From Escherichia coli (GTDB taxonomy: Bacteria; Pseudomonadota; Gammaproteobacteria; Enterobacterales; Enterobacteriaceae): a stretch of 64,000 nucleotides of DNA. The stretch lies in NCBI RefSeq assembly GCF_003790525.1, contig NZ_CP033632.1. One strand, given 5' to 3'. Below, in pieces: positions 7,719 to 32,399 of this stretch; position 1 is the first letter of the stretch, and each line of letters starts with the position of its first letter. The translations under genes and the position numbers were made by a program. Below the pieces are notes generated by a model, which saw only the letters and a program-made list of their open reading frames with translations, searched no databases and was not told the origin of the DNA.

Positions 7719-7727
7719 GAGGATGGA

Positions 7728-7916
7728 TTAAACCCCGGTATCCTGTAGCAGGGTAAGGGCTGCTGTATCGCCACGGCGCTTCAGGATGGAGGTCGTCACC
7801 ATCGCAGGTGGTGGGTCCATGGGTTTGAGCATTTTCATCCAGTCCCATTCTCGTTGTGAGAGCTTCTCAGCACCAACAGAGAGCAGAACTGTATCGATAC
7901 TTTTGCGGGTCAACAT
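7728..7916 (-). CDS. Small ORF upstream of the IS91-family transposase, 62 aa
   Basis: Same strand, 9 bp upstream of the transposase gene; IS91-like elements often carry a small upstream ORF. Confidence 0.3.
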   Translation of the reverse strand: MLTRKSIDTVLLSVGAEKLSQREWDWMKMLKPMDPPPAMVTTSILKRRGDTAALTLLQDTGV

Positions 7917-8026
7917 AAGGGGATGAGTCCTTAATAAAACAGGTCCTCAGAGCATACATATTCTGCGGGGCGTGCGGCAACAACAGGACGAACCGGGGCG
8001 GTTTTCAATTTGCAGCCGCCAGGCTG

Positions 8027-9477: not shown

Positions 9478-9482
9478 GATGA

Positions 9483-10289
<807 letters not shown>

Positions 10290-11352: not shown

Positions 11353-11401
11353 CTCTGCGGTGCTAAAAAGAACAAGATTCACCGCAACCCAGGACACTGC
11401 C

Positions 11402-11881
11402 ATGTTAGATTACCGCTTCCCGACAGCTTTGCAGATGGTTCTCAGCGTAGCAATGGCGGAGCAGATGGGTGAACGTTCGACGAGTGCGATTCTGGCCTAC
11501 GGCCTGGAAGCGAACCCGAGCTTTATCCGTAAACTAATGGTTCCGCTAACTCGTGACGGCATTATCGTCTCCACGCTTGGTCGCAACGGCTCAATTCATC
11601 TTGGCCGTCCGGCGGACAAGATCACCCTGCGTGATATCTATCTTTCGGTTATCGAAGATAAAAAACTGTGGGCGTCGCGTCCTGACGTCCCGGCCCGCTG
11701 CGTGGTCAGCGCCAACGCCTGCTGGTACTTCAAATCGGTTGCCGATGAAGCAGAGCAGGCTTCGTTAAACGTCCTCGCTCGCCATACCGTGGCCAGCGCG
11801 CTGGAGGCGGTCAAAAACGCCGATACCAGCGGCTGCGACCCGGTGCCGGAAATGATCGCCCGCTTTAAAAAAGCGCATTAA
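11402..11881 (+). CDS. oqxR: Rrf2-family repressor OqxR
   Basis: Start taken at MLDYRFPTALQ...; placed next to oqxAB; the track ORF extends into the IS26 end. Confidence 0.7.
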   Translation: MLDYRFPTALQMVLSVAMAEQMGERSTSAILAYGLEANPSFIRKLMVPLTRDGIIVSTLGRNGSIHLGRPADKITLRDIYLSVIEDKKLWASRPDVPARCVVSANACWYFKSVADEAEQASLNVLARHTVASALEAVKNADTSGCDPVPEMIARFKKAH

Positions 11882-11897
11882 TCATTTTCTGGTGACG

Positions 11898-11935
11898 AAA
11901 AAAAACCGCCTTCAAATTGTGAAGGCGGTTTTTTT
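11898..11935. terminator. Bidirectional rho-independent terminator between oqxR and oqxB
   Basis: A-run, stem ccgccttca/tgaaggcgg, T-run. Confidence 0.75.
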
Positions 11936-11950
11936 GTTATCTGCTGCAGG

Positions 11951-14900
11951 CTAGGCGGGCAGATCCTCCTGGACCGGCTTCCTGCGGGTCACCAGTTTCC
12001 GTAGCGTCACGTAAAACACCGGCGTCAGGAACAGACCGAAGAGCGTCACGCCCAGCATCCCGGAGAACACCGTGATCCCGGTGACGCCGCGGACTTCCGC
12101 CCCCGCGCCGTGGCCGAGGATCAGCGGAATGGTCCCGGCGATAAAGGCGATGGAGGTCATCACGATCGGGCGCAGACGCAGGCGGCATGCCTCCAGCGCC
12201 GCTTCCATGATGCCTTTCCCCTGGATCTCCAGCTCGCGGGCAAACTCGACGATCAGAATGGCGTTTTTACAGGCCAGGCCCATCAGGACCACCAGACCCA
12301 CCTGCACGAAGACGTTGTTATCGCCCCCGGTCAGCCAGACGCCAAACAGCGCGGAGAGCATCGTCATCGGTACGATAAGGATCACCGCCAGCGGCAGGGT
12401 CCAGCTTTCATACAGCGCGGCCAGTACGAGGAATGCCAGCAGCACCGCCACCGGGAAGACGATCAGCGCCGTGTTGCCCTGGGTGGCCTGCTGGAAGCTG
12501 AGATCCGTCCACTCAATATTCATCCCATTCGGCAGGATCTGCTTCGACAGCTCTTCCAGATGCGTCATCGCCTGCGAAGAAGAGAGGACCCGCGGATCGG
12601 CATCGCCAATCAGGTCCGCCGCCGGATAACCGTTGTAGCGGATCACCGGATCCGGCCCGTAGGTGGTACTGATATTCACCATACTGCCGATCGGTACCAT
12701 TTCGCCCTGATTATTGCGGGTGCGCAGATTGGCGATATCTTCCACGCTCTCGCGGTATGGTCCGTCAGCCTGGGCCATCACGCGCCAGGTACGCCCGAAC
12801 TGGTTAAAGTCATTGACATAAGACGAGCCGAGATAGGTCTGCAGCGTACCGAACAGATCGGTTAGCGATACCCCCTGCGCTTTCGCCTTATCGCGATCGA
12901 CCTGCACGTCCAGCTGCGGCACGTTAGCCTGGTAAGTCGAGATCGGGAAGTGCATCCCCGGCGTCTGCATAATCGCCCCGGACATCGCATTCACCGCGCT
13001 TTGCAGCGCGCCATAGCCCAGCCCTCCGCGATCCTGGATGTACAGGGAGTAGCCGGAACCCTGACCCAGACCTAAAATCGGCGGCGGCAGGATGGAAAAG
13101 CCAAAGCCCTGCTGGATTTGCGCGATTTTGGCGTTGATCTCCGCGTTAATTTCCGCCGCCGTGTGTTTGCGCTGGTCGAACGGTTTCAGGCCAAAAAAGA
13201 CCGTCCCGGTATTCGGCGTGTTGGTGAACTGCAGCGCGTTAAGCCCCGGGAAAGCGACCGCATAGTCGACCCCTTCGGTATTCATCCCGATCTCGCTCAT
13301 TTTGCGGATCACCGCGTCGGTGCGCGCCAGCGACGACCCTTCCGGCATCTTCACGCCGCCAATGAGATACAGCTTATCCTGGGTGGGAATAAACCCGCCG
13401 GGGACGACTTTAAACATCACCCCAGCGGCGCAGAGCAGCAGCAGGTACACCGCAAACACTGCGCCACGGCGTCCAAGCGTTTTGCCTACCAGTCCCTGAT
13501 AGCCGTTCGAGCTGCGCAGGAAAAAGCGGTTAAACGGACGGAAAATCCAGCCAAACAGGCGATCGATCAGCCGGGTAGGGAGGTCTTTCTTCGCGCCGTG
13601 CGGCTTTAACAGCAGGGCCGCCAGCGCCGGGGAGAGCGTCAGCGAGTTGATGGCCGAGATCACCGTCGAGATGGCGATGGTCACCGCGAACTGTTTGTAG
13701 AACTGGCCGGTGACCCCGGAGAGAAACGCCATCGGCACGAACACCGCACACAGCACCAGCGCAATGGCGATAATCGGCCCGGAGACCTCACGCATCGCCT
13801 GATGCGCCGCGGCAAGCGGCGCAAGCCCCTCTTCGATATTACGCTCGACGTTCTCCACCACCACGATGGCGTCGTCCACCACGATACCGATAGCCAGTAC
13901 CAGCCCGAACAGGCTCAGGGTATTCAGCGAGAAGCCCAGCAGATAGAGAATGCTGAAGGTACCCACCACCGATACCGGCACAGCGATCAACGGGATAATC
14001 GACGCGCGCCAGGTCTGCAGGAACAGGATCACTACCAGCACCACCAGCACTACCGCCTCCAGCAGCGTCTGCACCACCGCGCGGATGGAGTCGCGGACGA
14101 AAACCGTCGGGTCGTACGGCGCCGCCCATTGCATATCTTCCGGGAAGCGGGTGGCCAGCTCGGCCATTTTGGCGCGTACCGCGTTCGACAGATCGATGGC
14201 GTTAGCGCCGGGTGACTGGAAGATACCGATCCCGACCGCATCCTTATTGTTGAGCTGGGAGCGCAGCGCATAGCTACCGGAACCCATCTCGATGCGCGCC
14301 ACGTCGCGCAGGCGGACCAGCGAGCCATCCTGCGCCGTTTTCAGAATGATATTGCCAAACTCTTCTTCGGTATGCAGACGGCCCTGGGCGTTAATGGAGA
14401 TCAGGAAATCGCTCTCCTGCGGCAGCGGCTCGGCGCCAAGCTGTCCGGCAGACACCTGGACGTTTTGCTCCTGCATCGCCGTCACCACATCCGAGGCCGT
14501 CAGACCGCGGGCAGCGACCTTATTGGGATCCAGCCAGACGCGCATCGCATATTCACCGGAGCCAAAAATCTGGATCTGGCCGACGCCGGGCAGGCGCGCC
14601 AGCTCATCCTTCACTTTCAGCGTGGCGTAGTTGCGCATATACAGCGAGTCGTACTTCCCGCCGGGGGAGAACAGATGCACCACCAGGGTCAGCGTCGGAG
14701 ACTGCTTCTGGGTGGTGATCCCCAGACGGCGTACATCCTCCGGCAGACGCGCTTCGGCCTGCGCGACGCGGTTCTGCACCTGAACCTGCGCCTGATCCGG
14801 GTCGGTACCCGGGCGGAAGGTGACGGTGGTGACCAGCACGCCGTCGGAGCCGGCGACCGATTTCATGTACATCATGTTTTCAACGCCGTTGATCGCTTCC

Positions 14901-15103
14901 TCCAGCGGCGTCGCCACGGTCTCGGCAATCACTTTCGGGTTGGCGCCGGGATACTCCGCGCGCACCTGGACGCTCGGCGGGACGACATCCGGATATTCGC
15001 TCACCGGCAGCAGTGGGATAGCGATTAACCCGGTGATAAAAATTAAAATCGACAGCACCGCGGCGAAAATCGGCCTGTCGATAAAAAAGCGGGAAAAGTC
15101 CAT
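11951..15103 (-). CDS. oqxB: RND efflux transporter OqxB, 1050 aa
   Basis: AcrB-like 1050-aa translation; paired with the adaptor gene. Confidence 0.9.
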   Translation of the reverse strand: MDFSRFFIDRPIFAAVLSILIFITGLIAIPLLPVSEYPDVVPPSVQVRAEYPGANPKVIAETVATPLEEAINGVENMMYMKSVAGSDGVLVTTVTFRPGTDPDQAQVQVQNRVAQAEARLPEDVRRLGITTQKQSPTLTLVVHLFSPGGKYDSLYMRNYATLKVKDELARLPGVGQIQIFGSGEYAMRVWLDPNKVAARGLTASDVVTAMQEQNVQVSAGQLGAEPLPQESDFLISINAQGRLHTEEEFGNIILKTAQDGSLVRLRDVARIEMGSGSYALRSQLNNKDAVGIGIFQSPGANAIDLSNAVRAKMAELATRFPEDMQWAAPYDPTVFVRDSIRAVVQTLLEAVVLVVLVVILFLQTWRASIIPLIAVPVSVVGTFSILYLLGFSLNTLSLFGLVLAIGIVVDDAIVVVENVERNIEEGLAPLAAAHQAMREVSGPIIAIALVLCAVFVPMAFLSGVTGQFYKQFAVTIAISTVISAINSLTLSPALAALLLKPHGAKKDLPTRLIDRLFGWIFRPFNRFFLRSSNGYQGLVGKTLGRRGAVFAVYLLLLCAAGVMFKVVPGGFIPTQDKLYLIGGVKMPEGSSLARTDAVIRKMSEIGMNTEGVDYAVAFPGLNALQFTNTPNTGTVFFGLKPFDQRKHTAAEINAEINAKIAQIQQGFGFSILPPPILGLGQGSGYSLYIQDRGGLGYGALQSAVNAMSGAIMQTPGMHFPISTYQANVPQLDVQVDRDKAKAQGVSLTDLFGTLQTYLGSSYVNDFNQFGRTWRVMAQADGPYRESVEDIANLRTRNNQGEMVPIGSMVNISTTYGPDPVIRYNGYPAADLIGDADPRVLSSSQAMTHLEELSKQILPNGMNIEWTDLSFQQATQGNTALIVFPVAVLLAFLVLAALYESWTLPLAVILIVPMTMLSALFGVWLTGGDNNVFVQVGLVVLMGLACKNAILIVEFARELEIQGKGIMEAALEACRLRLRPIVMTSIAFIAGTIPLILGHGAGAEVRGVTGITVFSGMLGVTLFGLFLTPVFYVTLRKLVTRRKPVQEDLPA

Positions 15104-15126
15104 GTCTTGGATTCTCTGATTAGGGA

Positions 15127-16302
15127 TCAGTTAAGGGTGGCGCTGGAGGTCATGGCAACGGTTTTGGCGTTAACCGGCATACCCGGCATAAACACTTTTT
15201 GTAAGCCGTCGACGATGACGCTATCCCCAGGATTCAACCCCTTCTGAACGATGCGTAAACCGTCTGCCAGCCGCCCTGGGGTAATGTCGCGGCGCTGTGC
15301 TTTACCATCTTTATCAACGATATAGACGTATTTACGATCCTGATCGGTCAGTACCGCTTTGTCGTCGATCAGCGTGGCTTTGAACTCTGCGCTGCCCGGC
15401 AGACGCACGCGGGCAAACAGCCCCGGCGTGAACAGACGCTGCGAGTTATCCAGCAGCGCACGCATGCGGATGGTGCCGGTACTCGGCGTTAACTGATTAT
15501 CGAGAAAATCCACTTTGCCCTGGTGGGGGTAACCCTCCTCGCCCACCAGGCCAATCTCCACCGGGAGCGCCTGATTATCGCTGGACGCGCCTTGCCCGCG
15601 GCGGGCGAGGTTTTGATAGTGGAGGTAGGTTGACTCGTCGACGTCAAAGTAGACGTACACCGTCTTTTGCGAGACCAGGGTGGTGAGCACGCTGGCGGTG
15701 TCGCCCGCGGTGACCAGGTTACCGCTGGTGATCAGCGCCCGGCTGGCGCGGCCGTCAATAGGGGCGGTCACTTTGGTGAAGTCGAGGTTAAGCTGCGCGG
15801 CATCCACCGCCGCCTGCGCGGCGCGAATGTCGGCCTGCGCCTGAACCGCGGCTGACCGGCGCTGCTCCCACTCTTCACGGGAGACGAGGTTGGTATGGAC
15901 TAATTTATCGGTGCGGTTCGCCTCGCTTTGCGCGAGGCTGGCCTGCGTTTTGGCTCTTGCCAACGCCGCCTGCGCCTGCTCCAGCGCGGCGCGATAGGTT
16001 CTGTCATCTATCGTGAACAGCACCTGGCCCTTTTTCACCTCCTGGCCGTCAGTGTAATTCACTTTATCAATGTATCCCGAGACGCGAGGGCGAAGCTGAA
16101 CGCTCTCCACCGCTTCAATGCGACCGTTAAAACTATCCCACTGACTGATCGACTTCACCAGCACCTTAGCGGCGCTGACCGTCGGGGCGGGAGGCGCAGC
16201 ATTCTGTGCGACGCTGTCGTCGCAGCCGACGAGCAGAAAGGAGAGCATCATCGCGCCGAGCGCGGTCAGGTGAATGTTTCCCCAGGTTTTTTGCAGGCTC
16301 AT
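15127..16302 (-). CDS. oqxA: RND periplasmic adaptor OqxA, 391 aa
   Basis: Membrane-fusion-protein translation upstream of oqxB. Confidence 0.9.
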   Translation of the reverse strand: MSLQKTWGNIHLTALGAMMLSFLLVGCDDSVAQNAAPPAPTVSAAKVLVKSISQWDSFNGRIEAVESVQLRPRVSGYIDKVNYTDGQEVKKGQVLFTIDDRTYRAALEQAQAALARAKTQASLAQSEANRTDKLVHTNLVSREEWEQRRSAAVQAQADIRAAQAAVDAAQLNLDFTKVTAPIDGRASRALITSGNLVTAGDTASVLTTLVSQKTVYVYFDVDESTYLHYQNLARRGQGASSDNQALPVEIGLVGEEGYPHQGKVDFLDNQLTPSTGTIRMRALLDNSQRLFTPGLFARVRLPGSAEFKATLIDDKAVLTDQDRKYVYIVDKDGKAQRRDITPGRLADGLRIVQKGLNPGDSVIVDGLQKVFMPGMPVNAKTVAMTSSATLN

Positions 16303-16558
16303 TATTTTTATTCCGGTAAATGTAGCCGCCGGGCAAGACGCAGCGTGAGAAGCCGCGCCACTTCCTTTGTCCGGGCTGGCTTAAGGCCATTTGTGTCGAT
16401 CATCGCCACAAAACTGTAACAATTTCGAATACACTATCGCGGCGATTGTAGGAAGGCGCTTAACTAAGTGCAAGAATAATTGTTGCACTTTATGTGCGGT
16501 CCAGGGGGGGGATAAAAAACCGCGATCCCGGCGTGGATTTAAATGTAACAATAAAACT

Positions 16559-17378
16559 GGCACTGTTGCAAATAGTCGGTGGTGATAAACTTATCATCCC
16601 CTTTTGCTGATGGAGCTGCACATGAACCCATTCAAAGGCCGGCATTTTCAGCGTGACATCATTCTGTGGGCCGTACGCTGGTACTGCAAATACGGCATCA
16701 GTTACCGTGAGCTGCAGGAGATGCTGGCTGAACGCGGAGTGAATGTCGATCACTCCACGATTTACCGCTGGGTTCAGCGTTATGCGCCTGAAATGGAAAA
16801 ACGGCTGCGCTGGTACTGGCGTAACCCTTCCGATCTTTGCCCGTGGCACATGGATGAAACCTACGTGAAGGTCAATGGCCGCTGGGCGTATCTGTACCGG
16901 GCCGTCGACAGCCGGGGCCGCACTGTCGATTTTTATCTCTCCTCCCGTCGTAACAGCAAAGCTGCATACCGGTTTCTGGGTAAAATCCTCAACAACGTGA
17001 AGAAGTGGCAGATCCCACGATTCATCAACACGGATAAAGCGCCCGCCTATGGTCGCGCGCTTGCTCTGCTCAAACGCGAAGGCCGGTGCCCGTCTGACGT
17101 TGAACACCGACAGATTAAGTACCGGAACAACGTGATTGAATGCGATCATGGCAAACTGAAACGGATAATCAACGCCACGCTGGGATTTAAATCCATGAAG
17201 ACGGCTTACGCCACCATCAAAGGTATTGAGGTGATGCGTGCACTACGCAAAGGCCAGGCCTCAGCATTTTATTATGGTGATCCCCTGGGCGAAATGCGCC
17301 TGGTAAGCAGAGTTTTTGAAATGTAAGGCCTTTGAATAAGACAAAAGGCTGCCTCATCGCTAACTTTGCAACAGTGCC
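16559..17378 (+). mobile_element. IS26: IS26 copy 4
   Basis: 820 bp with terminal IRs. Confidence 0.97.
16604..17326 (+). CDS. tnp26: IS26 transposase Tnp26, Asn184 allele
   Basis: ORF translation. Confidence 0.95.
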   Translation: MLMELHMNPFKGRHFQRDIILWAVRWYCKYGISYRELQEMLAERGVNVDHSTIYRWVQRYAPEMEKRLRWYWRNPSDLCPWHMDETYVKVNGRWAYLYRAVDSRGRTVDFYLSSRRNSKAAYRFLGKILNNVKKWQIPRFINTDKAPAYGRALALLKREGRCPSDVEHRQIKYRNNVIECDHGKLKRIINATLGFKSMKTAYATIKGIEVMRALRKGQASAFYYGDPLGEMRLVSRVFEM

Positions 17379-19084
17379 ATATGACGATGGCTGCTAAAGA
17401 GCTGCTGGAGTCACAAGGGCTGAAGGTCACGGCGCTGGCCCCCTATGGGACACAGAAAAAAGCGCTTGAAGATGATGGATTACCGGCCCGCACCGTTGCC
17501 GCTTTCCTCAAAGCGAAGGATAAAAAGCTGGATGAAAAATCAGTCGTATTCATTGATGAAGCCGGGGTTATACCCGCCCGACAGATGAAACAGCTGATGG
17601 AGGTAATCGAGAAGCATAACGCTCGCGCGGTATTCCTGGGGGATACGTCACAGACGAAAGCGGTAGAAGCCGGTAAGCCTTTTGAGCAGCTGATTAAAGC
17701 AGGTATGCAGACCAGCTACATGAAAGACATTCAGCGACAGAAGAATGAAGTTTTGCTTGAGGCGGTTAAGTATGCCGCTGAAGGTAATGCCGCGCGCGCC
17801 CTGAAAAATATCACCGGCGTGAACGAACTGAAGGAAGAAGCGCCCCGACTCGCTCAACTTGCCGATCGCTACCTGTCTCTGTCCTCAGAACAACAGGATG
17901 CCACCCTGATAATCTCTGGTACGAACGCCTCACGCAAAACCCTCAATGACTACATCCGGGGCAATCTGGGGCTTGCCGGAACCGGCGAAACGTTCACGCT
18001 ACTTGACCGCGTGGATTCGACACAGGCGGAACGCCGCGACAGCCGTTATTTCAGTAAAGGGCAAATCATTATCCCCGAACAGGATTACAAAAATGGTATG
18101 AAGCGGGGCGAGTCTTACCAGGTTCTTGATACCGGGCCGGGCAACAAATTGACGGTTGAAAGCATCAGCGGTGAGCAGATCGCTTTCAGCCCGCGTACAC
18201 ACACCAAGCTGTCTGTATACCAGGCAGTCAGCGCCGAACTGGCGCCGGGCGATAAGGTTATGGTAACGCGTAACGATAAAACGCTGGACGTTGCCAACGG
18301 CGACCGCTTCACGGTGAAAACCGTGGAGGGTGAAAAACTGACGCTTGAGGACAAAAAAGGGCGCACGGTTGAGCTGGATAAAAAACAGGCTTCTTATCTT
18401 TCCTATGCTTATGCAACCACCGTCCACAAATCCCAGGGGCTTACCTGTGATCGCGTGTTGTTCAACATAGATACCAAATCGCTTACCACTTCTAAGGACG
18501 TTTTTTATGTTGGTATTTCGCGTGCGCGTCATGAGGTGGAAATTTTTACCGACGATAAAAAATCTTTGGCATCGAGCGTGAGCCGCGACAGCCCGAAAAC
18601 CACGGCCGCAGAAATTGACCGTTTCTTTGGACTTGAGGCCAGGTTTAAGGATATTGGCCGCGATACCAGTTTAGAAACCCGATCAGCTGAAAAAGGTCTG
18701 CCAGAAGCCACGGGGGAAAGCATGGCGTTTAACCAGAAACCCGATGAACATAACATGACAACCGGCACTGATTATCAGCCGGTGAGCAACGCAGAGGACG
18801 CCTTTCATCTTAAGCAGAACCCTATGGATGATTCCGTTGGCCTGCGGCGTCATGAAGCACAGCAAAATGATGCAGAGCTGGCCCATGATTATGCTGCTGC
18901 CGACGATCAGCAGTGGAGCGCGCAGGAGTATGCCGATTACGAGCATTATGCCGAAGCATCCGACTACGACTTTGACAGCAGCATTTACGACGATTACGCC
19001 ATGCCGCAGACGTCTCAGGCGGAACAGAGCCATACCGGAAAAGAACACACCCATGAGCATGAAGAAGGGGGCCATGAAATCTGA
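17379..19084 (+). pseudogene. traI: Conjugative relaxase/helicase (TraI-like) C-terminal fragment; 5' part removed by IS26
   Basis: Reading frame starts at the IS26 boundary; helicase-like body with an acidic C-terminal tail. Confidence 0.7.
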
Positions 19085-19710
19085 TGGAGCAGATCGACAA
19101 GCGCAAGCAGGATAAACTGAAGTTCGACCGGGTAATTAATCTGGCGCACAGACTGCCGCAACCGGCGATCCATGACTTACTACGCGCGCTGATACTGCCA
19201 ATTCAGGCCGATTACTTGCTGGCCGTTGGCACGGAGGGCCAGGACGCGCGCCCGGACATGAACGAGCGCGAGTTCTTCTTCACAAAAATCATCTGGGCGA
19301 TGGATTACACGCACATGAAATCACTCAGGCTTGCAGCTGAAGATTTTCCCCTGGCGCTTGCGACGGCCAAGATCCTGCCGTGGCCGTGGGGTGAATCAAG
19401 CTACCGGAGTGCTTTAGCCGATATAGGCAGCGCTAAGGGCAATCCGTGGGTACAGGATATTAACCACCGCGTTACTTTGTGGTTGCCCTGGCGGATAGGC
19501 TTTGTACGAGGAGGGAACCATTCTATTGCCAGCGGCGTTCTGGCCGGTGAGGGTGAGGTAATACCCGATACGGTTTATGATATGCGGTATTTGCTCGATA
19601 TTGTCAGCACTGACGGGTATTACTGGTACATGAGCGGGAAGATCTGCGAGAGAGTCAGTGACTACCGTACAGCCGCCTTTTTTGAAATAGGCCGCCTGCT
19701 TACACTGTGA
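19084..19710 (+). CDS. Hypothetical protein, 208 aa, coupled to the relaxase gene
   Basis: ATGA stop/start overlap with the upstream gene; no recognised domain. Confidence 0.5.
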   Translation: MEQIDKRKQDKLKFDRVINLAHRLPQPAIHDLLRALILPIQADYLLAVGTEGQDARPDMNEREFFFTKIIWAMDYTHMKSLRLAAEDFPLALATAKILPWPWGESSYRSALADIGSAKGNPWVQDINHRVTLWLPWRIGFVRGGNHSIASGVLAGEGEVIPDTVYDMRYLLDIVSTDGYYWYMSGKICERVSDYRTAAFFEIGRLLTL

Positions 19711-19753
19711 TTCCTTCAAAATATCTCAACGAAATTTCCCGACACCTGTTTAA

Positions 19754-19774
19754 GGGGGAACCGCAGAATTCGGA
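19754..19774. repeat. 21-bp remnant of a Tn21/Tn501-family terminal inverted repeat
   Basis: gggggaaccgcagaattcgga matches the first 21 bp of the 38-bp IR; compare the complete IR at 49753..49790. Confidence 0.6.
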
Positions 19775-20172
19775 TTTCATATAACCTATTTTTGTTGTTC
19801 AAGTTTGATTCCTTGGACTCTTCAGAATACAGACAGCAAATAAAGACCTTTCGTTTGAAGTATGTATTTCTTGCAGCAAAAATAATCAAAACCGCAAGAT
19901 ATGTAATCATGAAGTTGTCGGAAAACTATCCGTACAAGGGAGTGTATGAAAAATGTCTGGTATAATAAGAATATCATCAATAAAATTGAGTGTTGCTCTG
20001 TGGATAACTTGCAGAGTTTATTAAGTATCATTGCAGCAAAGATGAAATCAATGATTTATCAAAAATGATTGAAAGGTGGTTGTAAATAATGTTACAATGT
20101 GTGAGAAGCAGTCTAAATTCTTCGTGAAATAGTGATTTTTGAAGCTAATAAAAAACACACGTGGAATTTAGG
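19775..20172 (+). mobile_element. ISEcp1: ISEcp1 3' remnant with IRR and outward promoter; left boundary approximate
   Basis: Sequence ...tgttgctctgtggataacttgcagag...ttgaaa...tacaat...acacacgtggaatttagg recalled as the ISEcp1 right end; a 42-bp spacer follows. Confidence 0.8.
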
Positions 20173-20196
20173 GAATACTGATGTAACACGGATTGA

Positions 20197-21090
<894 letters not shown>

Positions 21091-21092
21091 CT

Positions 21093-22149
21093 GGTTTTGT
21101 TGAATAAATCGAACTTTTGCTGAGTTGAAGGATCAGATCACGTATCTTCCCGACAACGCAGACCGTTCCGTGGCAAAGCAAAAGTTCAAAATCACCAACT
21201 GGCCCACCTACAATAAAGCCCTCATCAACCGTGGCTCCATAACTTTCTGGCTGGATGATGAAGCTATTCAGGCCTGGTATGAGTCAGCAACACCTTCTTC
21301 ACGAGGCAGACCTCAGCGCTATTCTGACCTTGCCATCACGACTGTGCTGGTCATTAAACGCGTATTCAGGCTGACCCTGCGCGCTGCGCAGGGCTTTATT
21401 GATTCCATTTTTTCTCTGATGAACGTTCCGCTACGCTGCCCGGATTACAGCTGTGTCAGCAGGCGGGCAAAGTCGGTTAATATCAGTTTCAAAACGCCCA
21501 CCCGGGGTGAAATCGCACACCTGGTAATTGATTCCACCGGGCTGAAGGTCTTCGGTGAAGGCGAGTGGAAAGTCAAAAAGCATGGCCAGGAACGCCGTCG
21601 TATATGGCGTAAGCTGCATCTGGCAGTTGACAGTAAAACACATGAAATCATCTGCGCTGACCTGTCGCTGAACAACGTTACGGACTCAGAGGCCTTCCCC
21701 GGGTTAATCCGGCAAACCCACCGGAAAATCAGGTCAGCCGCCGCCGATGGAGCTTACGATACCCGGCTCTGTCACGATGAACTGCGGCGTAAGAAAATCA
21801 GCGCGCTTATCCCGCCCCGAAAAGGTGCGGGTTACTGGCCCGGTGAATATGCAGACCGTAACCGTGCAGTGGCTAATCAGCGAATGACCGGGAGTAATGC
21901 GCGGTGGAAATGGACAACAGATTACAACCGTCGCTCGATAGCGGAAACGGCGATGTACCGGGTAAAACAGCTGTTCGGGGGTTCACTGACGCTGCGTGAC
22001 TACGATGGTCAGGTTGCGGAGGCTATGGCCCTGGTACGAGCGCTGAACAAAATGACGAAAGCAGGTATGCCTGAAAGCGTGCGTATTGCCTGAAAACACA
22101 ACCCGCTACGGGGGAGACTTACCCGAAATCTGATTTATTCAACAAAGCC
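21093..22149 (+). mobile_element. IS903: IS903 (1057 bp, 18-bp IRs)
   Basis: IRs ggttttgttgaataaatc at 21093 and gatttattcaacaaagcc at 22132..22149. Confidence 0.9.
21170..22093 (+). CDS. IS903 transposase (GTG start)
   Basis: ORF 21125..22093 translation is IS5-family. Confidence 0.88.
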   Translation: MAKQKFKITNWPTYNKALINRGSITFWLDDEAIQAWYESATPSSRGRPQRYSDLAITTVLVIKRVFRLTLRAAQGFIDSIFSLMNVPLRCPDYSCVSRRAKSVNISFKTPTRGEIAHLVIDSTGLKVFGEGEWKVKKHGQERRRIWRKLHLAVDSKTHEIICADLSLNNVTDSEAFPGLIRQTHRKIRSAAADGAYDTRLCHDELRRKKISALIPPRKGAGYWPGEYADRNRAVANQRMTGSNARWKWTTDYNRRSIAETAMYRVKQLFGGSLTLRDYDGQVAEAMALVRALNKMTKAGMPESVRIA

Positions 22150-23247
22150 ACGCGCTGGACACACCACGATGACAGCGGTTTTATCCCTTACGCCATCACC
22201 ACCGGCCTTGATTACGAGGCGATGACCGAACAGCGCAAAGGCTATGAGAACTTTGTTTATCAGAACGGCGTTTACGATCTCGGCACCAAAGGTGATATGC
22301 GACGTAACGAACGTAACCTGATGTGGAACCTCGATCCCTACATTCAAACGCACTGGCAGCTCACCTCAGCCCTGGGGCTGGACGCCGGGGCGCGCTATAG
22401 CTCGGTATGGTTTGATTCCAACGATCGTTATGTTGTAGGTAAAAATGGTGATGATAGCGGCGAAGCGAGCTATCACAAGTGGCTTCCGGCGGCAGCGCTG
22501 AAGTATGCCATGACGCCGCAGTGGAACGTTTACCTCTCTGCCGGGAGGGGATTTGAAACGCCGACCATTAACGAGCTGTCCTATCGTCCCGATGGTCAGT
22601 CCGGGCTTAACTTTGCTCTGCAACCGGCCACTAACACCACCGTTGAAGCAGGCAGTAAATGGCAGGTGGGCACCGGGATGGCGAGCCTGAGCGTCTTCAA
22701 TACGGACACGAAAAATGAAATTGTCGTTGCCGCCAGCGACAATGGCCGTACGTCCTATCAGAACGCGGGCAAGACGCGCCGCCGCGGGGTCGAACTGGGA
22801 TGGGATCAGCAATTTGCGCCCGCCTGGCGCGCCAAACTGGCGTGGACGCTGCTGGATGCGACCTACCGTGAAAACGCCGGCGATGCTATTCAGAGCGGCA
22901 ATCGGATCCCGGGGATTGCACGTAATAGCGCCTATGCCTCCTTTGGCTGGGTGCCGGAAGAGGGATGGTACGCTGGCGCTGAAGTCCGCTATATGAGCGA
23001 TATTCAGGTCAACGATGCCAATAGCGAGCAGGCTCCAGCCTATACGGTGACGGCACTGAATACCGGCTATAAATATGTGCTAGATAACTGGACCGTCGAC
23101 CTCTATACGCGCGTTGATAACCTGTTTGATAAGCGCTACGTCGGCTCTGTTATCGTCAACGAGAGCAACGGACGCTATTATGAACCGGCGCCGGGCCGTA
23201 ACTATGGCGTTGGGCTATCGGTCAGCTATCAGTTTGATTCGCTGTAA
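22150..23247 (+). pseudogene. iroN: TonB-dependent siderophore receptor (IroN-like) C-terminal fragment
   Basis: Beta-barrel C-terminus ending ...YGVGLSVSYQFDSL; starts at the IS903 boundary. Confidence 0.75.
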
Positions 23248-23791
23248 CAATACGGCTGCCGGAGAGTGCTATTGAGGTGAGGCTCCGGCAGCGGGTAAAG
23301 GCGTTGATTCCTGGTAACAATAAGCTGCTTATTGATGTATCAGTAAGCATGCCGGCAGCCATTGCGCTTGATATAATACTACCCCATATGAGCAAGAGTA
23401 TTTTCACGGAAAAGCTAGCAGCCAATTTCGGCCTCGCGGCCTTCCCGCTTCTCAATTGAGCATATAATTTTTCCGCAGCCAAAACCTGCTCAGGTTCAGG
23501 CTTGGTCCTTACAGACTGGTATTCAACAATCGAACCATTCTTAGCTATTGGCGTTACATAAGCACTTACCCAATAGTGGTCGCCATTTTTACAGCGATTT
23601 TTTACTAGCCCCATCCATGAGCGGCCAGATTTTAATGTACTCCACATATGCTCAAATGCAGCAGGCGGCATATCTGGGTGTCTTACGATGTTGTGAGGCT
23701 GGCCTAATAGTTCTTCCTCAGTGAAACCACTGATTTTAATGAAGTCAGGATTAACGTACGTGATATGGCTTTGAGGGGAGGTAGTCGAAAG
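23222..23791 (-). pseudogene. PAS-domain sensor (Aer-like) fragment, 5' end removed by IS26
   Basis: PAS-like segment PAAFEHMWSTLKSGRSWMGLVKNRCKNGDHYWV; coding frame continues up to the IS26 boundary. Confidence 0.55.
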
Positions 23792-24611
23792 GGCACTGTT
23801 GCAAAGTTAGCGATGAGGCAGCCTTTTGTCTTATTCAAAGGCCTTACATTTCAAAAACTCTGCTTACCAGGCGCATTTCGCCCAGGGGATCACCATAATA
23901 AAATGCTGAGGCCTGGCCTTTGCGTAGTGCACGCATCACCTCAATACCTTTGATGGTGGCGTAAGCCGTCTTCATGGATTTAAATCCCAGCGTGGCGCCG
24001 ATTATCCGTTTCAGTTTGCCATGATCGCATTCAATCACGTTGTTCCGGTACTTAATCTGTCGGTGTTCAACGTCAGACGGGCACCGGCCTTCGCGTTTGA
24101 GCAGAGCAAGCGCGCGACCATAGGCGGGCGCTTTATCCGTGTTGATGAATCGCGGGATCTGCCACTTCTTCACGTTGTTGAGGATTTTACCCAGAAACCG
24201 GTATGCAGCTTTGCTGTTACGACGGGAGGAGAGATAAAAATCGACAGTGCGGCCCCGGCTGTCGACGGCCCGGTACAGATACGCCCAGCGGCCATTGACC
24301 TTCACGTAGGTTTCATCCATGTGCCACGGGCAAAGATCGGAAGGGTTACGCCAGTACCAGCGCAGCCGTTTTTCCATTTCAGGCGCATAACGCTGAACCC
24401 AGCGGTAAATCGTGGAGTGATCGACATTCACTCCGCGTTCAGCCAGCATCTCCTGCAGCTCACGGTAACTGATGCCGTATTTGCAGTACCAGCGTACGGC
24501 CCACAGAATGATGTCACGCTGAAAATGCCGGCCTTTGAATGGGTTCATGTGCAGCTCCATCAGCAAAAGGGGATGATAAGTTTATCACCACCGACTATTT
24601 GCAACAGTGCC
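23792..24611 (-). mobile_element. IS26: IS26 copy 5 (Gly184 allele)
   Basis: 820 bp with terminal IRs. Confidence 0.97.
23844..24566 (-). CDS. tnp26: IS26 transposase Tnp26, Gly184 allele
   Basis: ORF translation. Confidence 0.95.
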   Translation of the reverse strand: MLMELHMNPFKGRHFQRDIILWAVRWYCKYGISYRELQEMLAERGVNVDHSTIYRWVQRYAPEMEKRLRWYWRNPSDLCPWHMDETYVKVNGRWAYLYRAVDSRGRTVDFYLSSRRNSKAAYRFLGKILNNVKKWQIPRFINTDKAPAYGRALALLKREGRCPSDVEHRQIKYRNNVIECDHGKLKRIIGATLGFKSMKTAYATIKGIEVMRALRKGQASAFYYGDPLGEMRLVSRVFEM

Positions 24612-24933
24612 GTAATTATTTAGGATATAGCTCTGTGATTTAGTCTTTTTAGGGCGTTTATTTATGTCTTTATGCTGTAATGTCGGTGCTGATTTGGTCT
24701 TCAATAAGGCGATTTTTAGCCCGCTTTTTCCGGGGGGATGAAATGTTATTGGATTGCTAAATGATTTCAAAAAAGGGGTAACATAGAGCGGGGATTAGTG
24801 TGGCGAGGCGCAGGTTTCCGATGGCAGGCTAAACGCAAAAAATGCGCTTTTTAGCCGGTGATGAGGTGAGGCCGGGAGGGGATGCGTCGCCGATCACAGT
24901 TTACAACAGGGTTTGATAACGGGAGGAAAAGTC

Positions 24934-25350
24934 ATGCTGCAGGGATTGAATCATCTGACGCTGGCGGTCAGCGATCTGGCGTCAAGCCTGGCATTTTATC
25001 AGCAGTTACCTGGAATGCGCCTGCACGCCAGCTGGGATAGCGGAGCCTATCTCTCCTGTGGGGCGCTGTGGCTGTGCTTGTCGCTGGATGAGCAGCGGCG
25101 TAAAACGCCCCCTCAGGAAAGCGACTATACCCACTACGCCTTCAGCGTGGCGGAAGAAGAGTTTGCCGGGGTGGTGGCTCTGCTGGCGCAGGCGGGGGCT
25201 GAGGTATGGAAAGATAACCGCAGTGAAGGGGCGTCTTACTATTTTCTCGACCCTGACGGCCATAAGCTGGAGCTGCATGTGGGGAATCTGGCGCAGCGGC
25301 TGGCCGCCTGTCGCGAACGCCCCTACAAGGGGATGGTCTTTTTTGATTGA
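24934..25350 (+). CDS. fosA3: Fosfomycin glutathione transferase FosA3, 138 aa
   Basis: Translation from [40 protein letters not shown]... matches FosA3. Confidence 0.9.
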
Positions 25351-25354
25351 CGGG

Positions 25355-25873
25355 TTAGTTCAGCTTACTGCCGGATTTCAACGTGCAGATCCACAGCGGT
25401 GAATTGATAGAGCTGAGCAAGATAGCCTTTTCGTTGAGCTTCTGAGCGTTGAGAAACAGCCCGTCGTGGCTGTCGGACATCTCGCGCATAAAGTAGTCGA
25501 AAATCACGTTCGGCGATTCATCAATCGAGGAGGCGCTCGATTCCCACTGATTGATGCGGTAATGACGCTCGGTGGCCGAGATGCGTTTGCTGCTGTAGGT
25601 AAACTTCACGTAGCGTTGCAGGTAGAGCCAGCCGGCGGCGGAGTCGGTGTAACCTTCGACCACCATCGAGCCTTTACCCTGCGCGCCAAAATTGAAGTGA
25701 ATATTGCCGTTAACGTTCTCTTTGTCCATGTTCTCAAAGCGCATGATGCCCTTAGTGGAACAGCTCATGACACCCGCGTTGTCGGCAGGCAGCAGCCGCC
25801 AGGCGCTAAACGCGGCGGCGGCAATAAATACCAGAACGCAGAGGGCAAAGAACGGACGCGGCGCGAGTCTCAT
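25355..25873 (-). CDS. Hypothetical membrane-anchored protein (orf1 of the fosA3 module)
   Basis: N-terminal hydrophobic segment; position in the usual fosA3 module. Confidence 0.6.
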   Translation of the reverse strand: MRLAPRPFFALCVLVFIAAAAFSAWRLLPADNAGVMSCSTKGIMRFENMDKENVNGNIHFNFGAQGKGSMVVEGYTDSAAGWLYLQRYVKFTYSSKRISATERHYRINQWESSASSIDESPNVIFDYFMREMSDSHDGLFLNAQKLNEKAILLSSINSPLWICTLKSGSKLN

Positions 25874-26661
25874 TACGGCTTCCAGGAGTAGTAAAAGTAG
25901 TTATCGCAATAGCTGAACGGGTTATCTTCATGCATGGCGCAGTGGGCAAGGAACACGCGCCCCAGCCCGTTGGTTTCGAGCCGATCGCCGTAGAAGAAAA
26001 GAAAACGTTCACCGGGTTTACAGGCAATATTCAGCCGCTGGCGTACCTCATCGAAGTTTTTGCCGTAGGACTCTTCACTGACCGAACGTCGCATTTCATC
26101 GCTGGCCAGCAGTTCGCACTGGCTATGGCTGAGGCGGGTCAGCGCGATAGGCTGGGATTCACTGATGCCGACCAGACTGAAGGCAACCAGAAGCAGGGCA
26201 ATGGTGAGCAAGCAGGCTCCGGCCATGTACCAGCACATCCCGCGAGCATGTGCGGAGCGCGGTGCGTCTGGCGTTGTCGTAACGGGCGGCGGTTCGGCAG
26301 GCGTCTGTTGTGGTGAAACCGGCGGCGCGTCGTCCAGCGCTTCGATAATGACCTCGGGATTAAGCTGCAAATAGCCGCGCGAGACGGTGACGATGATGTT
26401 ATCGACGCCGTAATGGCGAAAGGTCTTCCGCAGCATGCTGAGATACTGATTCAGATTGCTGTTGGATGAGGTTAATCCATTGTCATCCCAGACTTTTTTC
26501 AGAACATCTTCCCGGCTGACAATCTCGGTATGGCGCAGAAAATAGTTAAACAGGGCGCTGGCGGTGAGGGATAGCTGGCTGTCCGGTTCATCGCTTTGCG
26601 GCAGCGTCAGGGTTCCGTCGGTGGCGTCGTAGATAAAACGGGCATTGATGTTGTAGCGCAT
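25873..26661 (-). CDS. CadC/ToxR-like membrane-anchored winged-helix regulator (orf2)
   Basis: OmpR/PhoB-type DNA-binding N-terminus, proline-rich linker, one transmembrane segment. Confidence 0.6.
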   Translation of the reverse strand: MRYNINARFIYDATDGTLTLPQSDEPDSQLSLTASALFNYFLRHTEIVSREDVLKKVWDDNGLTSSNSNLNQYLSMLRKTFRHYGVDNIIVTVSRGYLQLNPEVIIEALDDAPPVSPQQTPAEPPPVTTTPDAPRSAHARGMCWYMAGACLLTIALLLVAFSLVGISESQPIALTRLSHSQCELLASDEMRRSVSEESYGKNFDEVRQRLNIACKPGERFLFFYGDRLETNGLGRVFLAHCAMHEDNPFSYCDNYFYYSWKP

Positions 26662-26680
26662 CGCGGCCTCAGTCTGTGCT

Positions 26681-27108
26681 TCACGCGGGAAGCGTCATTT
26701 TATTCAGGGAGTCAACCAGCGCGCGACGGTGGTCGGCGCTCATGGTGATCCCTTCCGTCAACTCCGAAAGCCAGATGCCGTCAGCGGCGTAGCGCACCAG
26801 CGTGCCGGTTGGGCTGTTATCCAGCTCATCGCCCTGCGCCAGTTTCTCCAGCATCCAGTCGCGCCAGCATTTGCGCAGCACCGGTTCATCGGGCATTGCC
26901 AGCGACAAAACCATAAGCTGGCGGCTTTCATGGGTGTCCGTGAGATCCGCCAGATAGTTCAGATAGGCGCGGGTAAACCGGCCATAGCTCACGCCATCCT
27001 GTTGCATCAGCGCGGTAATCGCTTCTTCCATGATTGCCAGCAGACGCGCGAACAGGGCGAATATTAGCGCCTGCTTGTTCGGGAAATGGTGGATAAGGCC
27101 GCCTTTAC
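26681..27108 (-). pseudogene. TetR-family regulator C-terminal fragment (orf3), 5' end removed by IS26
   Basis: TetR-like ligand-domain sequence; frame runs into the IS26 end. Confidence 0.6.
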
Positions 27109-27928
27109 GGCACTGTTGCAAAGTTAGCGATGAGGCAGCCTTTTGTCTTATTCAAAGGCCTTACATTTCAAAAACTCTGCTTACCAGGCGCATTTCGCCC
27201 AGGGGATCACCATAATAAAATGCTGAGGCCTGGCCTTTGCGTAGTGCACGCATCACCTCAATACCTTTGATGGTGGCGTAAGCCGTCTTCATGGATTTAA
27301 ATCCCAGCGTGGCGCCGATTATCCGTTTCAGTTTGCCATGATCGCATTCAATCACGTTGTTCCGGTACTTAATCTGTCGGTGTTCAACGTCAGACGGGCA
27401 CCGGCCTTCGCGTTTGAGCAGAGCAAGCGCGCGACCATAGGCGGGCGCTTTATCCGTGTTGATGAATCGCGGGATCTGCCACTTCTTCACGTTGTTGAGG
27501 ATTTTACCCAGAAACCGGTATGCAGCTTTGCTGTTACGACGGGAGGAGAGATAAAAATCGACAGTGCGGCCCCGGCTGTCGACGGCCCGGTACAGATACG
27601 CCCAGCGGCCATTGACCTTCACGTAGGTTTCATCCATGTGCCACGGGCAAAGATCGGAAGGGTTACGCCAGTACCAGCGCAGCCGTTTTTCCATTTCAGG
27701 CGCATAACGCTGAACCCAGCGGTAAATCGTGGAGTGATCGACATTCACTCCGCGTTCAGCCAGCATCTCCTGCAGCTCACGGTAACTGATGCCGTATTTG
27801 CAGTACCAGCGTACGGCCCACAGAATGATGTCACGCTGAAAATGCCGGCCTTTGAATGGGTTCATGTGCAGCTCCATCAGCAAAAGGGGATGATAAGTTT
27901 ATCACCACCGACTATTTGCAACAGTGCC
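27109..27928 (-). mobile_element. IS26: IS26 copy 6 (Gly184 allele)
   Basis: 820 bp with terminal IRs. Confidence 0.97.
27161..27883 (-). CDS. tnp26: IS26 transposase Tnp26, Gly184 allele
   Basis: ORF translation. Confidence 0.95.
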   Translation of the reverse strand: MLMELHMNPFKGRHFQRDIILWAVRWYCKYGISYRELQEMLAERGVNVDHSTIYRWVQRYAPEMEKRLRWYWRNPSDLCPWHMDETYVKVNGRWAYLYRAVDSRGRTVDFYLSSRRNSKAAYRFLGKILNNVKKWQIPRFINTDKAPAYGRALALLKREGRCPSDVEHRQIKYRNNVIECDHGKLKRIIGATLGFKSMKTAYATIKGIEVMRALRKGQASAFYYGDPLGEMRLVSRVFEM

Positions 27929-29933: not shown

Positions 29934-30109
29934 TGCGTGTGGCATGTATCGGCTTGTTACCGTACCCGACTCGTTTTTGGGCTTCTGCGCTAATTGCAAA
30001 GCCGTATGTCCTGATGGCTGACAACATCATCCCGGCACCAAAGCGCCGCCATACCGGTATTGCAGCGGCACGACGAGCAGCAAAGAGACGCAGGAGAGCA
30101 AAGCGATGA
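29933..30109 (+). CDS. Small basic protein, 58 aa (below the ORF-track threshold)
   Basis: Manual translation [58 protein letters not shown]; overlaps neighbours at both ends. Confidence 0.4.
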   Translation: MRVACIGLLPYPTRFWASALIAKPYVLMADNIIPAPKRRHTGIAAARRAAKRRRRAKR

Positions 30110-30467: not shown

Positions 30468-30468
30468 T

Positions 30469-32376: not shown

Positions 32377-32399
32377 ATTTCAATTAACACGGAGTAATT

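What the first reader, a model, noticed from the sequence alone, without database searches (positions are those of the whole stretch)
17379..19710. Relaxase fragment and coupled 208-aa unknown: remnant of a conjugative backbone
Only the C-terminal roughly 570 codons of a TraI-like relaxase/helicase remain, starting at the IS26 boundary, followed by a translationally coupled 208-aa protein with no recognisable domain. The nic-cleaving domain is lost, so self-transfer from this locus is unlikely.
Basis: inference. Interest (0 to 1): 0.25.

Follow-up and report, generated by a model that had tools for sequence, protein, structure and literature searches.

The report
IncN traI stub plus intact fipA
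This is a well-known leftover of an IncN conjugative plasmid, namely the dead back half of its relaxase gene plus an intact copy of the fertility-inhibition gene fipA, dragged along by IS26 with the blaCTX-M-65 resistance gene; it is ordinary.

Summary
IS26 (16559-17378) abuts the last 567 codons of a relaxase/helicase gene (17381-19084). A 208-codon ORF follows (19084-19710), and its start overlaps the stop (TGATG).

- **Origin.** The 2,376-bp segment 17379-19754 is IncN backbone. It is 99.4% identical to R46, and it is the only IncN backbone in the window.
- **The traI stub.** The break falls just after the helicase Walker A motif (…GYAGTGKS|YMTMAAKE). Both the TrwC nicking domain and the P-loop are therefore lost, and the fragment is a pseudogene.
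- **The "unknown" protein.** It is FipA: Pfam DUF6710 at E 1e-44, and 207/208 identical to the R46 gene between traI and nuc. FipA is the pKM101 factor reported to inhibit IncP transfer through TraG.
- **Provenance.** Window 17376-27726 is collinear at ≥99.9% with the intact IncN plasmid pAMSC4, apart from a ~1-kb gap. This includes the fipA–ΔISEcp1–blaCTX-M-65–IS903B–IS26–fosA3 arrangement. The IS26-bracketed fipA/blaCTX-M-65 module is published and widespread.
- **Host.** The carrier looks like a P1-type phage-plasmid. The window holds no relaxase, oriT or T4SS.

One side lead is weakly supported: the FipA C-terminal domain resembles the ParB/Srx fold, and DUF6710 genes also sit in defence islands.

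The parts
16559..17378 (+). IS26, complete 820-bp copy. Its right terminal repeat forms the truncation point of traI. There is no 8-bp target duplication (left flank ATAAAACT, right flank ATATGACG).
   Evidence: Sequence read directly. Script locating all IS26 copies and their flanks.
17379..19084 (+). ΔtraI: the 3' 53% of the IncN MOBF relaxase/helicase gene (codons 510-1076 in frame from 17381; stop at 19082-19084). It lacks the TrwC relaxase domain and the Walker A P-loop. It retains Walker B and the later SF1B helicase motifs, an SH3-like domain and the acidic C-terminal tail. It is a pseudogene.
   Evidence: Pfam and NCBIfam hits. Full-length TraI translation showing GYAGTGKS just before the break. 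Junction alignment. 566/569 identity to R46 TraI residues 510-1078.
19084..19710 (+). fipA, intact (208 aa, DUF6710): the fertility-inhibition gene of IncN plasmids. Its start overlaps the traI stop (TGATG). An SD-like AAGGGGG lies 12 nt upstream.
   Evidence: Pfam DUF6710 at 9.6e-45. 207/208 identity to the R46 gene between traI and nuc. UniRef name 'Fertility inhibition protein' for the exact sequence. N3 annotation of fipA, 100% to pKM101 AAC63100 (PMC3347995). SD sequence.
19711..19754 (+). Last 44 bp of IncN backbone downstream of fipA. Identity to R46 ends after ...CACCTGTTTAAG.
   Evidence: Three-way alignment of the window, R46 and pAMSC4. BLAST of R46 against the window ends at 19754.
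19755..20172 (+). ΔISEcp1: the 3' end only. It carries the only strong sigma-70-like promoter of the region (TTGAAA-18-TACAAT, 20069-20098) and the right terminal repeat ACGTGGAATTTAGG at 20159-20172, which lies 42 bp from the bla start.
   Evidence: Promoter scan. Exact match to the repeat. PGAP annotation 'IS1380 family transposase, missing N-terminus' at the equivalent place in AP021934.
20215..21090 (+). blaCTX-M-65.
   Evidence: Identical protein WP_013188475.1 annotated as CTX-M-65 at the collinear position in pAMSC4, CP019443 and AP021934. NCBIfam blaCTX-M at 617.8 bits.
21125..22093 (+). IS903B transposase gene.
   Evidence: ORF list. Annotation of the collinear records.
22222..23671 (.). 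Truncated TonB-dependent receptor gene (22222-23247, +) and truncated PAS-domain gene (23222-23671, -). These are passenger fragments that always accompany this blaCTX-M-65 module.
   Evidence: Pfam. Pseudogene annotation in AP021934. Published description of the bracket (PMC10783052).
23792..24611 (-). IS26 closing the blaCTX-M-65 bracket, inverted relative to the left copy.
   Evidence: Script.
24612..27928 (.). fosA3 module (fosA3 at 24934-25350, +) and the next IS26 (27109-27928, -). It is collinear with pAMSC4.
   Evidence: ORF translation [12 protein letters not shown].... BLAST of pAMSC4 16395-20336 against window 23786-27726, 99.95%. FosA3 annotation in pAMSC4.

Best explanation
Window 17379-19754 is a piece of IncN (R46/pKM101-type) plasmid backbone that travels as dead weight at the left end of an IS26-bounded resistance module.

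**History (shown by sequence comparison)**
1. An ISEcp1-blaCTX-M-65-IS903B unit became fixed 44 bp downstream of fipA in an IncN plasmid like pAMSC4. That plasmid also carries the adjacent IS26-fosA3-IS26 unit.
2. IS26 activity then cut into traI and moved the block onto other replicons. Here the recipient is a P1-like phage-plasmid.

**Function (partly inferred)**
- ΔtraI lacks the relaxase domain, the Walker A motif, its own start codon and a ribosome-binding site. It is a non-functional pseudogene.
- No oriT, accessory protein or coupling protein accompanies it, so the locus contributes nothing to transfer.
- fipA is intact and differs at one residue from the R46 gene.
- If fipA is transcribed, it should still make FipA. 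Transcription would come from read-through out of IS26 tnp26, since no + strand terminator is predicted in between and no strong promoter was found. This step is inferred.
- FipA is reported to block transfer of co-resident IncP plasmids by acting on their TraG coupling protein. Expression and activity in this context are not shown.
For: - **Identity to R46.** 99.4% over 2,385 bp, and nowhere else in the window apart from IS26 and integron sequences.
- **TraI fragment.** 566/569 identical to R46 TraI residues 510-1078. The breakpoint lies directly after GYAGTGKS.
- **FipA.** DUF6710 at 9.6e-45. 207/208 identical to the R46 gene between nuc and traI. The exact protein is named 'Fertility inhibition protein' in UniRef. 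The literature places fipA immediately after traI and before nuc (PMC3347995; PMC10446048). FipA acts on TraG (Santini & Stanisich 1998, as cited in PMC5696584).
- **Provenance.** The same fipA/ΔISEcp1 junction sits beside an intact traKJI operon in IncN pAMSC4. Window 17376-23791 is 99.98% and window 23786-27726 is 99.95% identical to that plasmid.
- **Published module.** The IS26-fipA-ISEcp1 fragment-blaCTX-M-65-IS102/903-TonB-PAS-IS26 bracket is described in E. coli and S. Infantis pESI-like plasmids, with variable fipA/IS26 distance (PMC10783052; PMC5507995; PMC13209303).
- **Spread.** The module is seen on IncHI2 and IncFII plasmids, with IS26 at other positions in traI.
- **PLSDB counts.** 720 records hold the traI 5' half, 1112 hold the 3' half plus fipA, and 1641 hold fipA sequence.
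- **Host.** Window ~29.4-45.3 kb is 99.2% phage P1. No relaxase or T4SS ORF is present in the window.
Against: - The exact IS26/traI junction of this window was not found as a continuous match in PLSDB or in complete E. coli genomes. The immediate ancestor is therefore not identified, and the order of events is inferred.
- Only 64 kb of the replicon is visible. The nearest relative of the right-hand part (pPSS-10_1) is typed MOBH/IncHI1B by MOB-suite, so a relaxase elsewhere cannot be excluded.
- No consensus promoter lies between IS26 and fipA. Only 8-of-12 matches were found. Loss of the traI translation start should weaken any coupling, so fipA may be silent.
Confidence: 0.9

Rival explanations
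1. The whole segment, fipA included, is an inert passenger. Neither gene is expressed, and it persists only because it lies between IS26 and the selected blaCTX-M-65 gene.
For: - No sigma-70 consensus promoter lies between 17200 and 19084, and only weak 8/12 matches were found.
- The native traKJI promoter region and the traI start are absent.
- In other carriers fipA is truncated or absent without loss of the module (PMC5507995). Only 396 of 1641 PLSDB records cover at least 80% of the fipA segment, which argues against strong selection for fipA.
Against: - fipA is intact, with 207/208 residues conserved.
- It keeps an SD-like sequence.
- tnp26 is co-oriented, with no predicted + strand terminator in between, so read-through transcription is possible.
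Confidence: 0.45
2. The truncated TraI is a functional stand-alone RecD-like helicase or defence protein, or a dominant-negative inhibitor of IncN or IncW relaxases.
For: - The fragment still matches helicase models (AAA_30, UvrD_C_2, RecD2) and PADLOC RecD-like models.
- RefSeq annotates similar fragments as 'ATP-dependent DNA helicase' or 'AAA family ATPase'.
Against: - The Walker A motif GYAGTGKS lies just upstream of the cut and is lost. The AAA_30 match starts at profile position 37 of 191.
- No SD sequence precedes the candidate ATGs at 17381 and 17387.
- The break position differs between plasmids. This is the pattern of random IS26 deletion, not of a selected product.
- The PADLOC hits reflect generic SF1 helicase similarity.
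Confidence: 0.03
3. The locus belongs to a still-transmissible conjugative or mobilisable replicon, with an intact relaxase and oriT outside the window.
For: - Only 64 kb is visible.
- The closest relative of window 39.5-61.5 kb, pPSS-10_1, is typed as mobilisable with a MOBH relaxase.
- Many carriers of this module are conjugative IncHI2, IncFII or IncN plasmids.
Against: - The backbone in the window is phage P1 at 99.2% (pacA, pacB, c1, cre).
- No relaxase, T4CP or T4SS gene is in the window.
- Even if a relaxase were present elsewhere, it would not make this fragment functional.
Confidence: 0.1

Closest known systems
traI-fipA region of IncN plasmids R46 / pKM101 / N3 / pAMSC4
   Same: 99.4% DNA identity to R46 over the retained 2.38 kb. 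The gene order is the same (traI then fipA, with a one-base TGATG overlap, then the intergenic sequence towards nuc). FipA is 207/208 identical and the TraI C-terminal half 566/569 identical.
   Different: Here traI is cut at codon 509 by IS26, and traK, traJ, oriT, nuc and the T4SS are absent. TraI has a 2-residue (HE) deletion and one substitution in the acidic tail relative to R46.
Published IS26-bracketed blaCTX-M-65 module (IS26-fipA-ΔISEcp1-blaCTX-M-65-IS903B/IS102-ΔTonB receptor-ΔPAS-IS26) of E. coli, IncHI2 plasmids and S. Infantis pESI-like plasmids
   Same: [quoted passage not shown]
   Different: In most described versions IS26 sits about 44 bp upstream of fipA, or inside fipA. This window keeps 1,705 bp of traI, and its exact IS26/traI junction was not found in PLSDB or in complete E. 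coli genomes. The two bracketing IS26 copies are inverted here.
Other fertility-inhibition factors that target coupling proteins: Osa (pSa/R388), FiwA (RP4), PifC (F)
   Same: The reported phenotype is of the same kind: a co-resident plasmid's transfer is blocked through its T4CP (TraG, TrwB or VirD4) (PMC5696584). Osa is reported to have a ParB/Srx fold, and the FipA C-terminal domain model weakly resembles that fold.
   Different: There is no detectable sequence relationship. hhalign of DUF6710 against the Osa family gave probability 0.6% and against a single Osa sequence 0.3%. Osa belongs to Pfam PFIN, not DUF6710.

Membership tests
MOBF relaxase/helicase (TrwC/TraI_IncN type) | N-terminal TrwC-type relaxase (nicking) domain | tested here: not met
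   The fragment starts at residue 510. No TrwC domain hit was obtained, and the 5' 1,525 bp of traI is absent from the window.
MOBF relaxase/helicase (TrwC/TraI_IncN type) | SF1B helicase core with Walker A P-loop | tested here: not met
   GYAGTGKS lies immediately upstream of the IS26 junction. The AAA_30 match begins at profile position 37.
MOBF relaxase/helicase (TrwC/TraI_IncN type) | Remaining helicase motifs and C-terminal region homologous to IncN TraI | tested here: met
   AAA_30 at 7e-32 and UvrD_C_2 at 1e-8. 566/569 identity to R46 TraI residues 510-1078. It is therefore a fragment of a family member, not a functional member.
MOBF relaxase/helicase (TrwC/TraI_IncN type) | Cognate oriT, accessory protein (TraK) and coupling protein (TraJ) adjacent | tested here: not met
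   BLAST of R46 and pAMSC4 against the window finds no backbone other than 17376-19754.
FipA / DUF6710 | Full-length match to Pfam DUF6710 above the gathering score | tested here: met
   153 bits against a cut-off of 27, E 9.6e-45, residues 27-206.
FipA / DUF6710 | Orthology to the pKM101/R46 fipA gene (sequence and position directly 3' of traI) | tested here: met
   207/208 identity to the R46 gene between traI and nuc. N3 fipA is annotated at the same position and is 100% identical to pKM101 AAC63100 (PMC3347995). The UniRef name is 'Fertility inhibition protein'.
FipA / DUF6710 | Inhibits IncP (RP1/RP4) conjugation through TraG | not testable with these tools
   This is an experimental phenotype, known only from the literature as cited in PMC5696584.
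IS26-bracketed blaCTX-M-65 module | Synteny IS26 / fipA / ΔISEcp1 / blaCTX-M-65 / IS903B / ΔTonB / ΔPAS / IS26 | tested here: met
   for the window. for collinear records. PMC10783052.
ParB/Srx superfamily (considered for the FipA C-terminal domain) | Structural similarity to the ParB/Srx fold | tested here: inconclusive
   [not shown]
ParB/Srx superfamily (considered for the FipA C-terminal domain) | Sequence-profile similarity to a ParB/Srx family | tested here: not met
   hhalign against a sulfiredoxin alignment gave probability 0.2%. A profile search of PDB sequences found nothing significant. No ParBc hit was obtained in Pfam.
Osa/FiwA (Pfam PFIN) fertility inhibitors | Sequence-profile homology | tested here: not met
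   hhalign gave probability 0.3% and 0.6%.

The most novel reading that the evidence does not exclude
fipA may not be dead cargo.
- DUF6710 proteins could be stand-alone anti-conjugation weapons whose C-terminal domain is a divergent ParB/Srx-like nucleotide-binding fold. The conserved strand-GGNHS-helix motif recalls the sulfiredoxin FGGCHR motif. This would make them structurally akin to the otherwise unrelated inhibitor Osa.
- The family also sits in chromosomal defence islands next to CBASS and Hachiman systems.
- By riding in the IS26-blaCTX-M-65 module, an intact fipA could give non-conjugative carriers, such as this P1-like phage-plasmid or pESI, the ability to suppress transfer of co-resident IncP-type plasmids.
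Probability: 0.2. Interest if true: 0.5.

Novelty: already known. Interest (0 to 1): 0.12.

Why it matters
As a finding it matters little. It is a textbook scar of IS26-mediated gene shuffling, and both the remnant and the module are already described.

Its practical value is as a provenance marker. The retained traI-fipA sequence shows that this blaCTX-M-65/fosA3 block was assembled in an IncN plasmid and later moved onto a P1-like phage-plasmid. In that host, resistance could spread by phage routes rather than by conjugation.

The one open point is whether the intact fipA that accompanies blaCTX-M-65 across many replicons is expressed and alters plasmid-plasmid competition. The mechanism of FipA remains unknown.

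Tried and rejected
- **Same IS26/traI junction elsewhere.** A 200-bp junction probe found no continuous match in PLSDB or in complete E. coli genomes. Only other break positions appeared.
- **Target-site duplications.** No flanks matched among the six IS26 copies, so no simple insertion or inversion history could be reconstructed.
- **Promoter for fipA.** No consensus promoter was found. A relaxed scan gave only 8/12 matches.
- **FipA as a known defence protein.** No PADLOC hit was obtained for FipA or three homologues.
- **FipA homology to Osa.** hhalign was negative with a single Osa sequence and with an 8-sequence Osa alignment against a 104-sequence DUF6710 alignment.
- **FipA homology to sulfiredoxin.** hhalign was negative. 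The Srx alignment was shallow and almost all vertebrate.
- **Solved relative by sequence.** None was found. An arginase 'LGGDHS' local match at E 1.2 is chance.
- **Other searches that failed.** The Santini & Stanisich 1998 paper is not held in the library, and Maindola 2014 did not turn up in a title search, so their content is taken from citing papers and from memory.
- **Rejected idea: DUF6710 is obligatorily coupled to a relaxase.** Of seven homologue contexts examined, only one (a metagenome-assembled genome) has TrwC-T4CP-PLD-DUF6710. The others are plasmid accessory regions or defence islands.
Full report
**Observation.** IS26 occupies window 16559-17378. It is 820 bp, has perfect 14-bp terminal repeats, and is one of six complete copies in the window. 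Directly after it, from 17379, lies an open frame whose in-frame native part runs from 17381 to a TGA at 19082-19084. That is 567 codons. The frame hits AAA_30 (7e-32), Viral_helicase1, UvrD_C_2 and TraI_hel_assoc_N. It also hits, well below their cut-offs, the TraA_Ti and TraI relaxase/helicase NCBIfam models. A 208-codon ORF follows at 19084-19710, and its ATG shares one base with the TGA (TGATG).

**What the relaxase fragment is.** megablast against PLSDB finds 1112 plasmids with this DNA. Most are at 99% identity or more. The 40-55 kb hits whose typing I checked (pAMSC4, R46) are IncN with a MOBF relaxase. The intact gene in IncN plasmid pAMSC4 (CP031109) encodes 1076 aa. The window retains residues 510-1076, and against R46 TraI it is 566/569 identical over residues 510-1078. 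The junction alignment places the IS26 end immediately after the helicase Walker A motif (…HGYAGTGKS|YMTMAAKE…). The TrwC nicking domain and the P-loop are therefore both missing. No Shine-Dalgarno sequence precedes the first in-frame ATGs. The fragment is a pseudogene, and RefSeq labels such as 'AAA family ATPase' or 'ATP-dependent DNA helicase' for similar fragments are automatic names.

**What the 208-aa protein is.** It is not domain-less. It matches Pfam DUF6710 at 9.6e-45. It is 207/208 identical to the R46 gene that lies between traI and nuc. The exact sequence is named 'Fertility inhibition protein' in UniRef. The published annotation of IncN plasmid N3 lists traI at 12475-15717 and fipA at 15717-16343, described as 'fertility inhibition of IncP plasmids' and 100% identical to pKM101 AAC63100. 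That is the same size and the same one-base overlap (PMC3347995). Other papers place fipA and nuc between the two tra loci (PMC10446048) and describe fipA as an insertion hotspot in IncN plasmids (PMC6045649, PMC5027574, PMC3490853). FipA of pKM101 is reported to inhibit RP1/RP4 transfer by an effect on the coupling protein TraG, and also to block Agrobacterium T-DNA transfer (Santini & Stanisich 1998 and Maindola et al. 2014, as summarised in PMC5696584).

**Boundaries and provenance.**
- Identity to R46 ends at 19754, 44 bp after the fipA stop.
- From 19755 the sequence is the 3' end of ISEcp1. Its right repeat ACGTGGAATTTAGG lies at 20159-20172, 42 bp before blaCTX-M-65 (20215-21090). Its promoter TTGAAA-18-TACAAT is the only strong promoter-like site in the region.
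- IS903B follows, then a truncated TonB-receptor gene, a truncated PAS gene and an inverted IS26 at 23792-24611.
- pAMSC4 has exactly the same fipA/ΔISEcp1 junction, but with an intact traK-traJ-traI operon upstream.
- Window 17376-23791 is 99.98% identical and window 23786-27726 is 99.95% identical to pAMSC4. Only about 1 kb next to IS26 is missing. The fosA3 unit is therefore shared as well (fosA3 at 24934-25350).
- R46 backbone matches the window nowhere else.
- The block was therefore assembled in an IncN plasmid and exported by IS26.

The same module, with IS26 at other positions in traI, is on an IncHI2 plasmid (CP019443) and an IncFII plasmid (AP021934). The literature describes the IS26-fipA-ISEcp1 fragment-blaCTX-M-65-IS102/903-TonB-PAS-IS26 bracket in E. 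coli plasmids and chromosomes, and in S. Infantis pESI-like plasmids, with fipA 'of varied lengths, or absent' (PMC10783052, PMC5507995, PMC13209303). In PLSDB, 720 records carry the traI 5' half, 1112 carry the 3' half plus fipA, and 1641 carry fipA sequence, of which only 396 cover at least 80% of it. Remnants without a relaxase domain are therefore common. The precise junction seen here was not found elsewhere.

**Host replicon.** Window ~29.4-45.3 kb is 99.2% identical to phage P1, including PdcB, PacA, PacB, C1 and Cre. A survey of all ORFs of 180 aa or more found transposases, resistance genes (oqxAB, aph(3')-II, tet(A), mer, CTX-M-65, fosA3) and P1 genes. It found no relaxase, coupling protein or T4SS component. 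Whether the whole replicon has another relaxase cannot be decided from 64 kb. One related plasmid is typed MOBH by MOB-suite.

**Likely function.** ΔtraI has none. fipA is intact and keeps an SD-like AAGGGGG 12 nt upstream. It has lost its operon promoter and the upstream translation that would couple to it. tnp26 is co-oriented, no + strand terminator is predicted in between, and no good promoter is found. Expression by read-through is therefore possible but unproven. I put roughly even odds on 'silent passenger' versus 'low-level FipA producer'.

**Side exploration of FipA.**
- An AlphaFold model built from 26 homologues is confident (pLDDT 93.4). It has an N-terminal helical hairpin and a C-terminal α/β domain.
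- The nearly invariant strand-GGNHS-helix motif is positioned like the sulfiredoxin FGGCHR motif. This comparison rests on my own reading of the sequences.
- Profile-profile comparisons with Osa and with sulfiredoxin are negative, so the fold assignment remains a lead only.
- DUF6710 is a large family, with 1030 clusters at 50% identity.
- Homologues occur next to TrwC-T4CP-PLD genes in a metagenome-assembled genome and in plasmid accessory regions.
- Homologues also occur in Pseudomonas, Vibrio and metagenomic islands beside CBASS-type, Hachiman-type and AAA_15/21 ATPase genes. No PADLOC model covers the family.

**Verdict.** This is a real and correctly located feature, but it is ordinary and already described. 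It is an IncN traI pseudogene plus fipA, carried as hitch-hiking backbone in a well-known IS26/blaCTX-M-65 module.

Noticed in passing
window 29400-45300: The backbone here is 99.2% identical to phage P1 (PdcB 37556-38599, PacA 39226-40419, PacB 40419-41903, C1 41928-42779, Cre 43933-44964). The multiresistance islands therefore appear to sit in a P1-like phage-plasmid, a carrier that spreads by lysogeny or transduction rather than by conjugation.
   Followed up: partly
window 17376-27726 compared with L001 (pAMSC4, CP031109): About 10.4 kb of the window (ΔtraI through blaCTX-M-65, IS26 and fosA3 into the next IS26, which ends at 27928) is collinear at 99.95-99.98% with one IncN plasmid. The only difference is a ~1-kb deletion next to the middle IS26. 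Both resistance units were therefore probably exported together.
   Followed up: yes
[not shown]
   Followed up: partly
window 872-27928: Six complete IS26 copies are present (872, 3637, 10533, 16559, 23792, 27109) plus a lone IS26 terminal repeat at 6209. No two flanks share an 8-bp duplication. Three of the copies differ from the copy at 16559 by 3 bases.
   Followed up: partly
window 11306-16302: oqxAB efflux genes (oqxB 11951-15103, oqxA 15127-16302, both on the - strand) lie with an Rrf2-family regulator gene (11306-11881) between two IS26 copies, immediately left of the finding.
   Followed up: no
window 6519-10289: An IS91/ISCR-type Y2 transposase gene (6519-7718, -), a Tn5/IS50-type transposase gene (8036-9388) and aph(3')-II (9495-10289) form another resistance fragment.
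   Followed up: no
window 49786-64000: A truncated Tn3-family transposase, tet(A)/tetR(A) (52987-54942), a mer operon (merR 56003-56572, merA 57658-59352), tni genes (60708-62423) and integron 3'-conserved sequence at the window end form a Tn1721/Tn21-like second resistance island on the other side of the P1 segment.
   Followed up: no
window 19030-19081: The acidic, His/Glu-rich C-terminal tail of TraI has a 2-residue (HE) deletion and an R-to-W change relative to R46. It matches pAMSC4 exactly, which supports that lineage as the donor.
   Followed up: partly
window 2802-3623: A 273-codon ORF between two IS26 copies has no Pfam or NCBIfam match. It overlaps an antisense 266-codon ORF (2784-3584) and may not be a gene.
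   Followed up: partly
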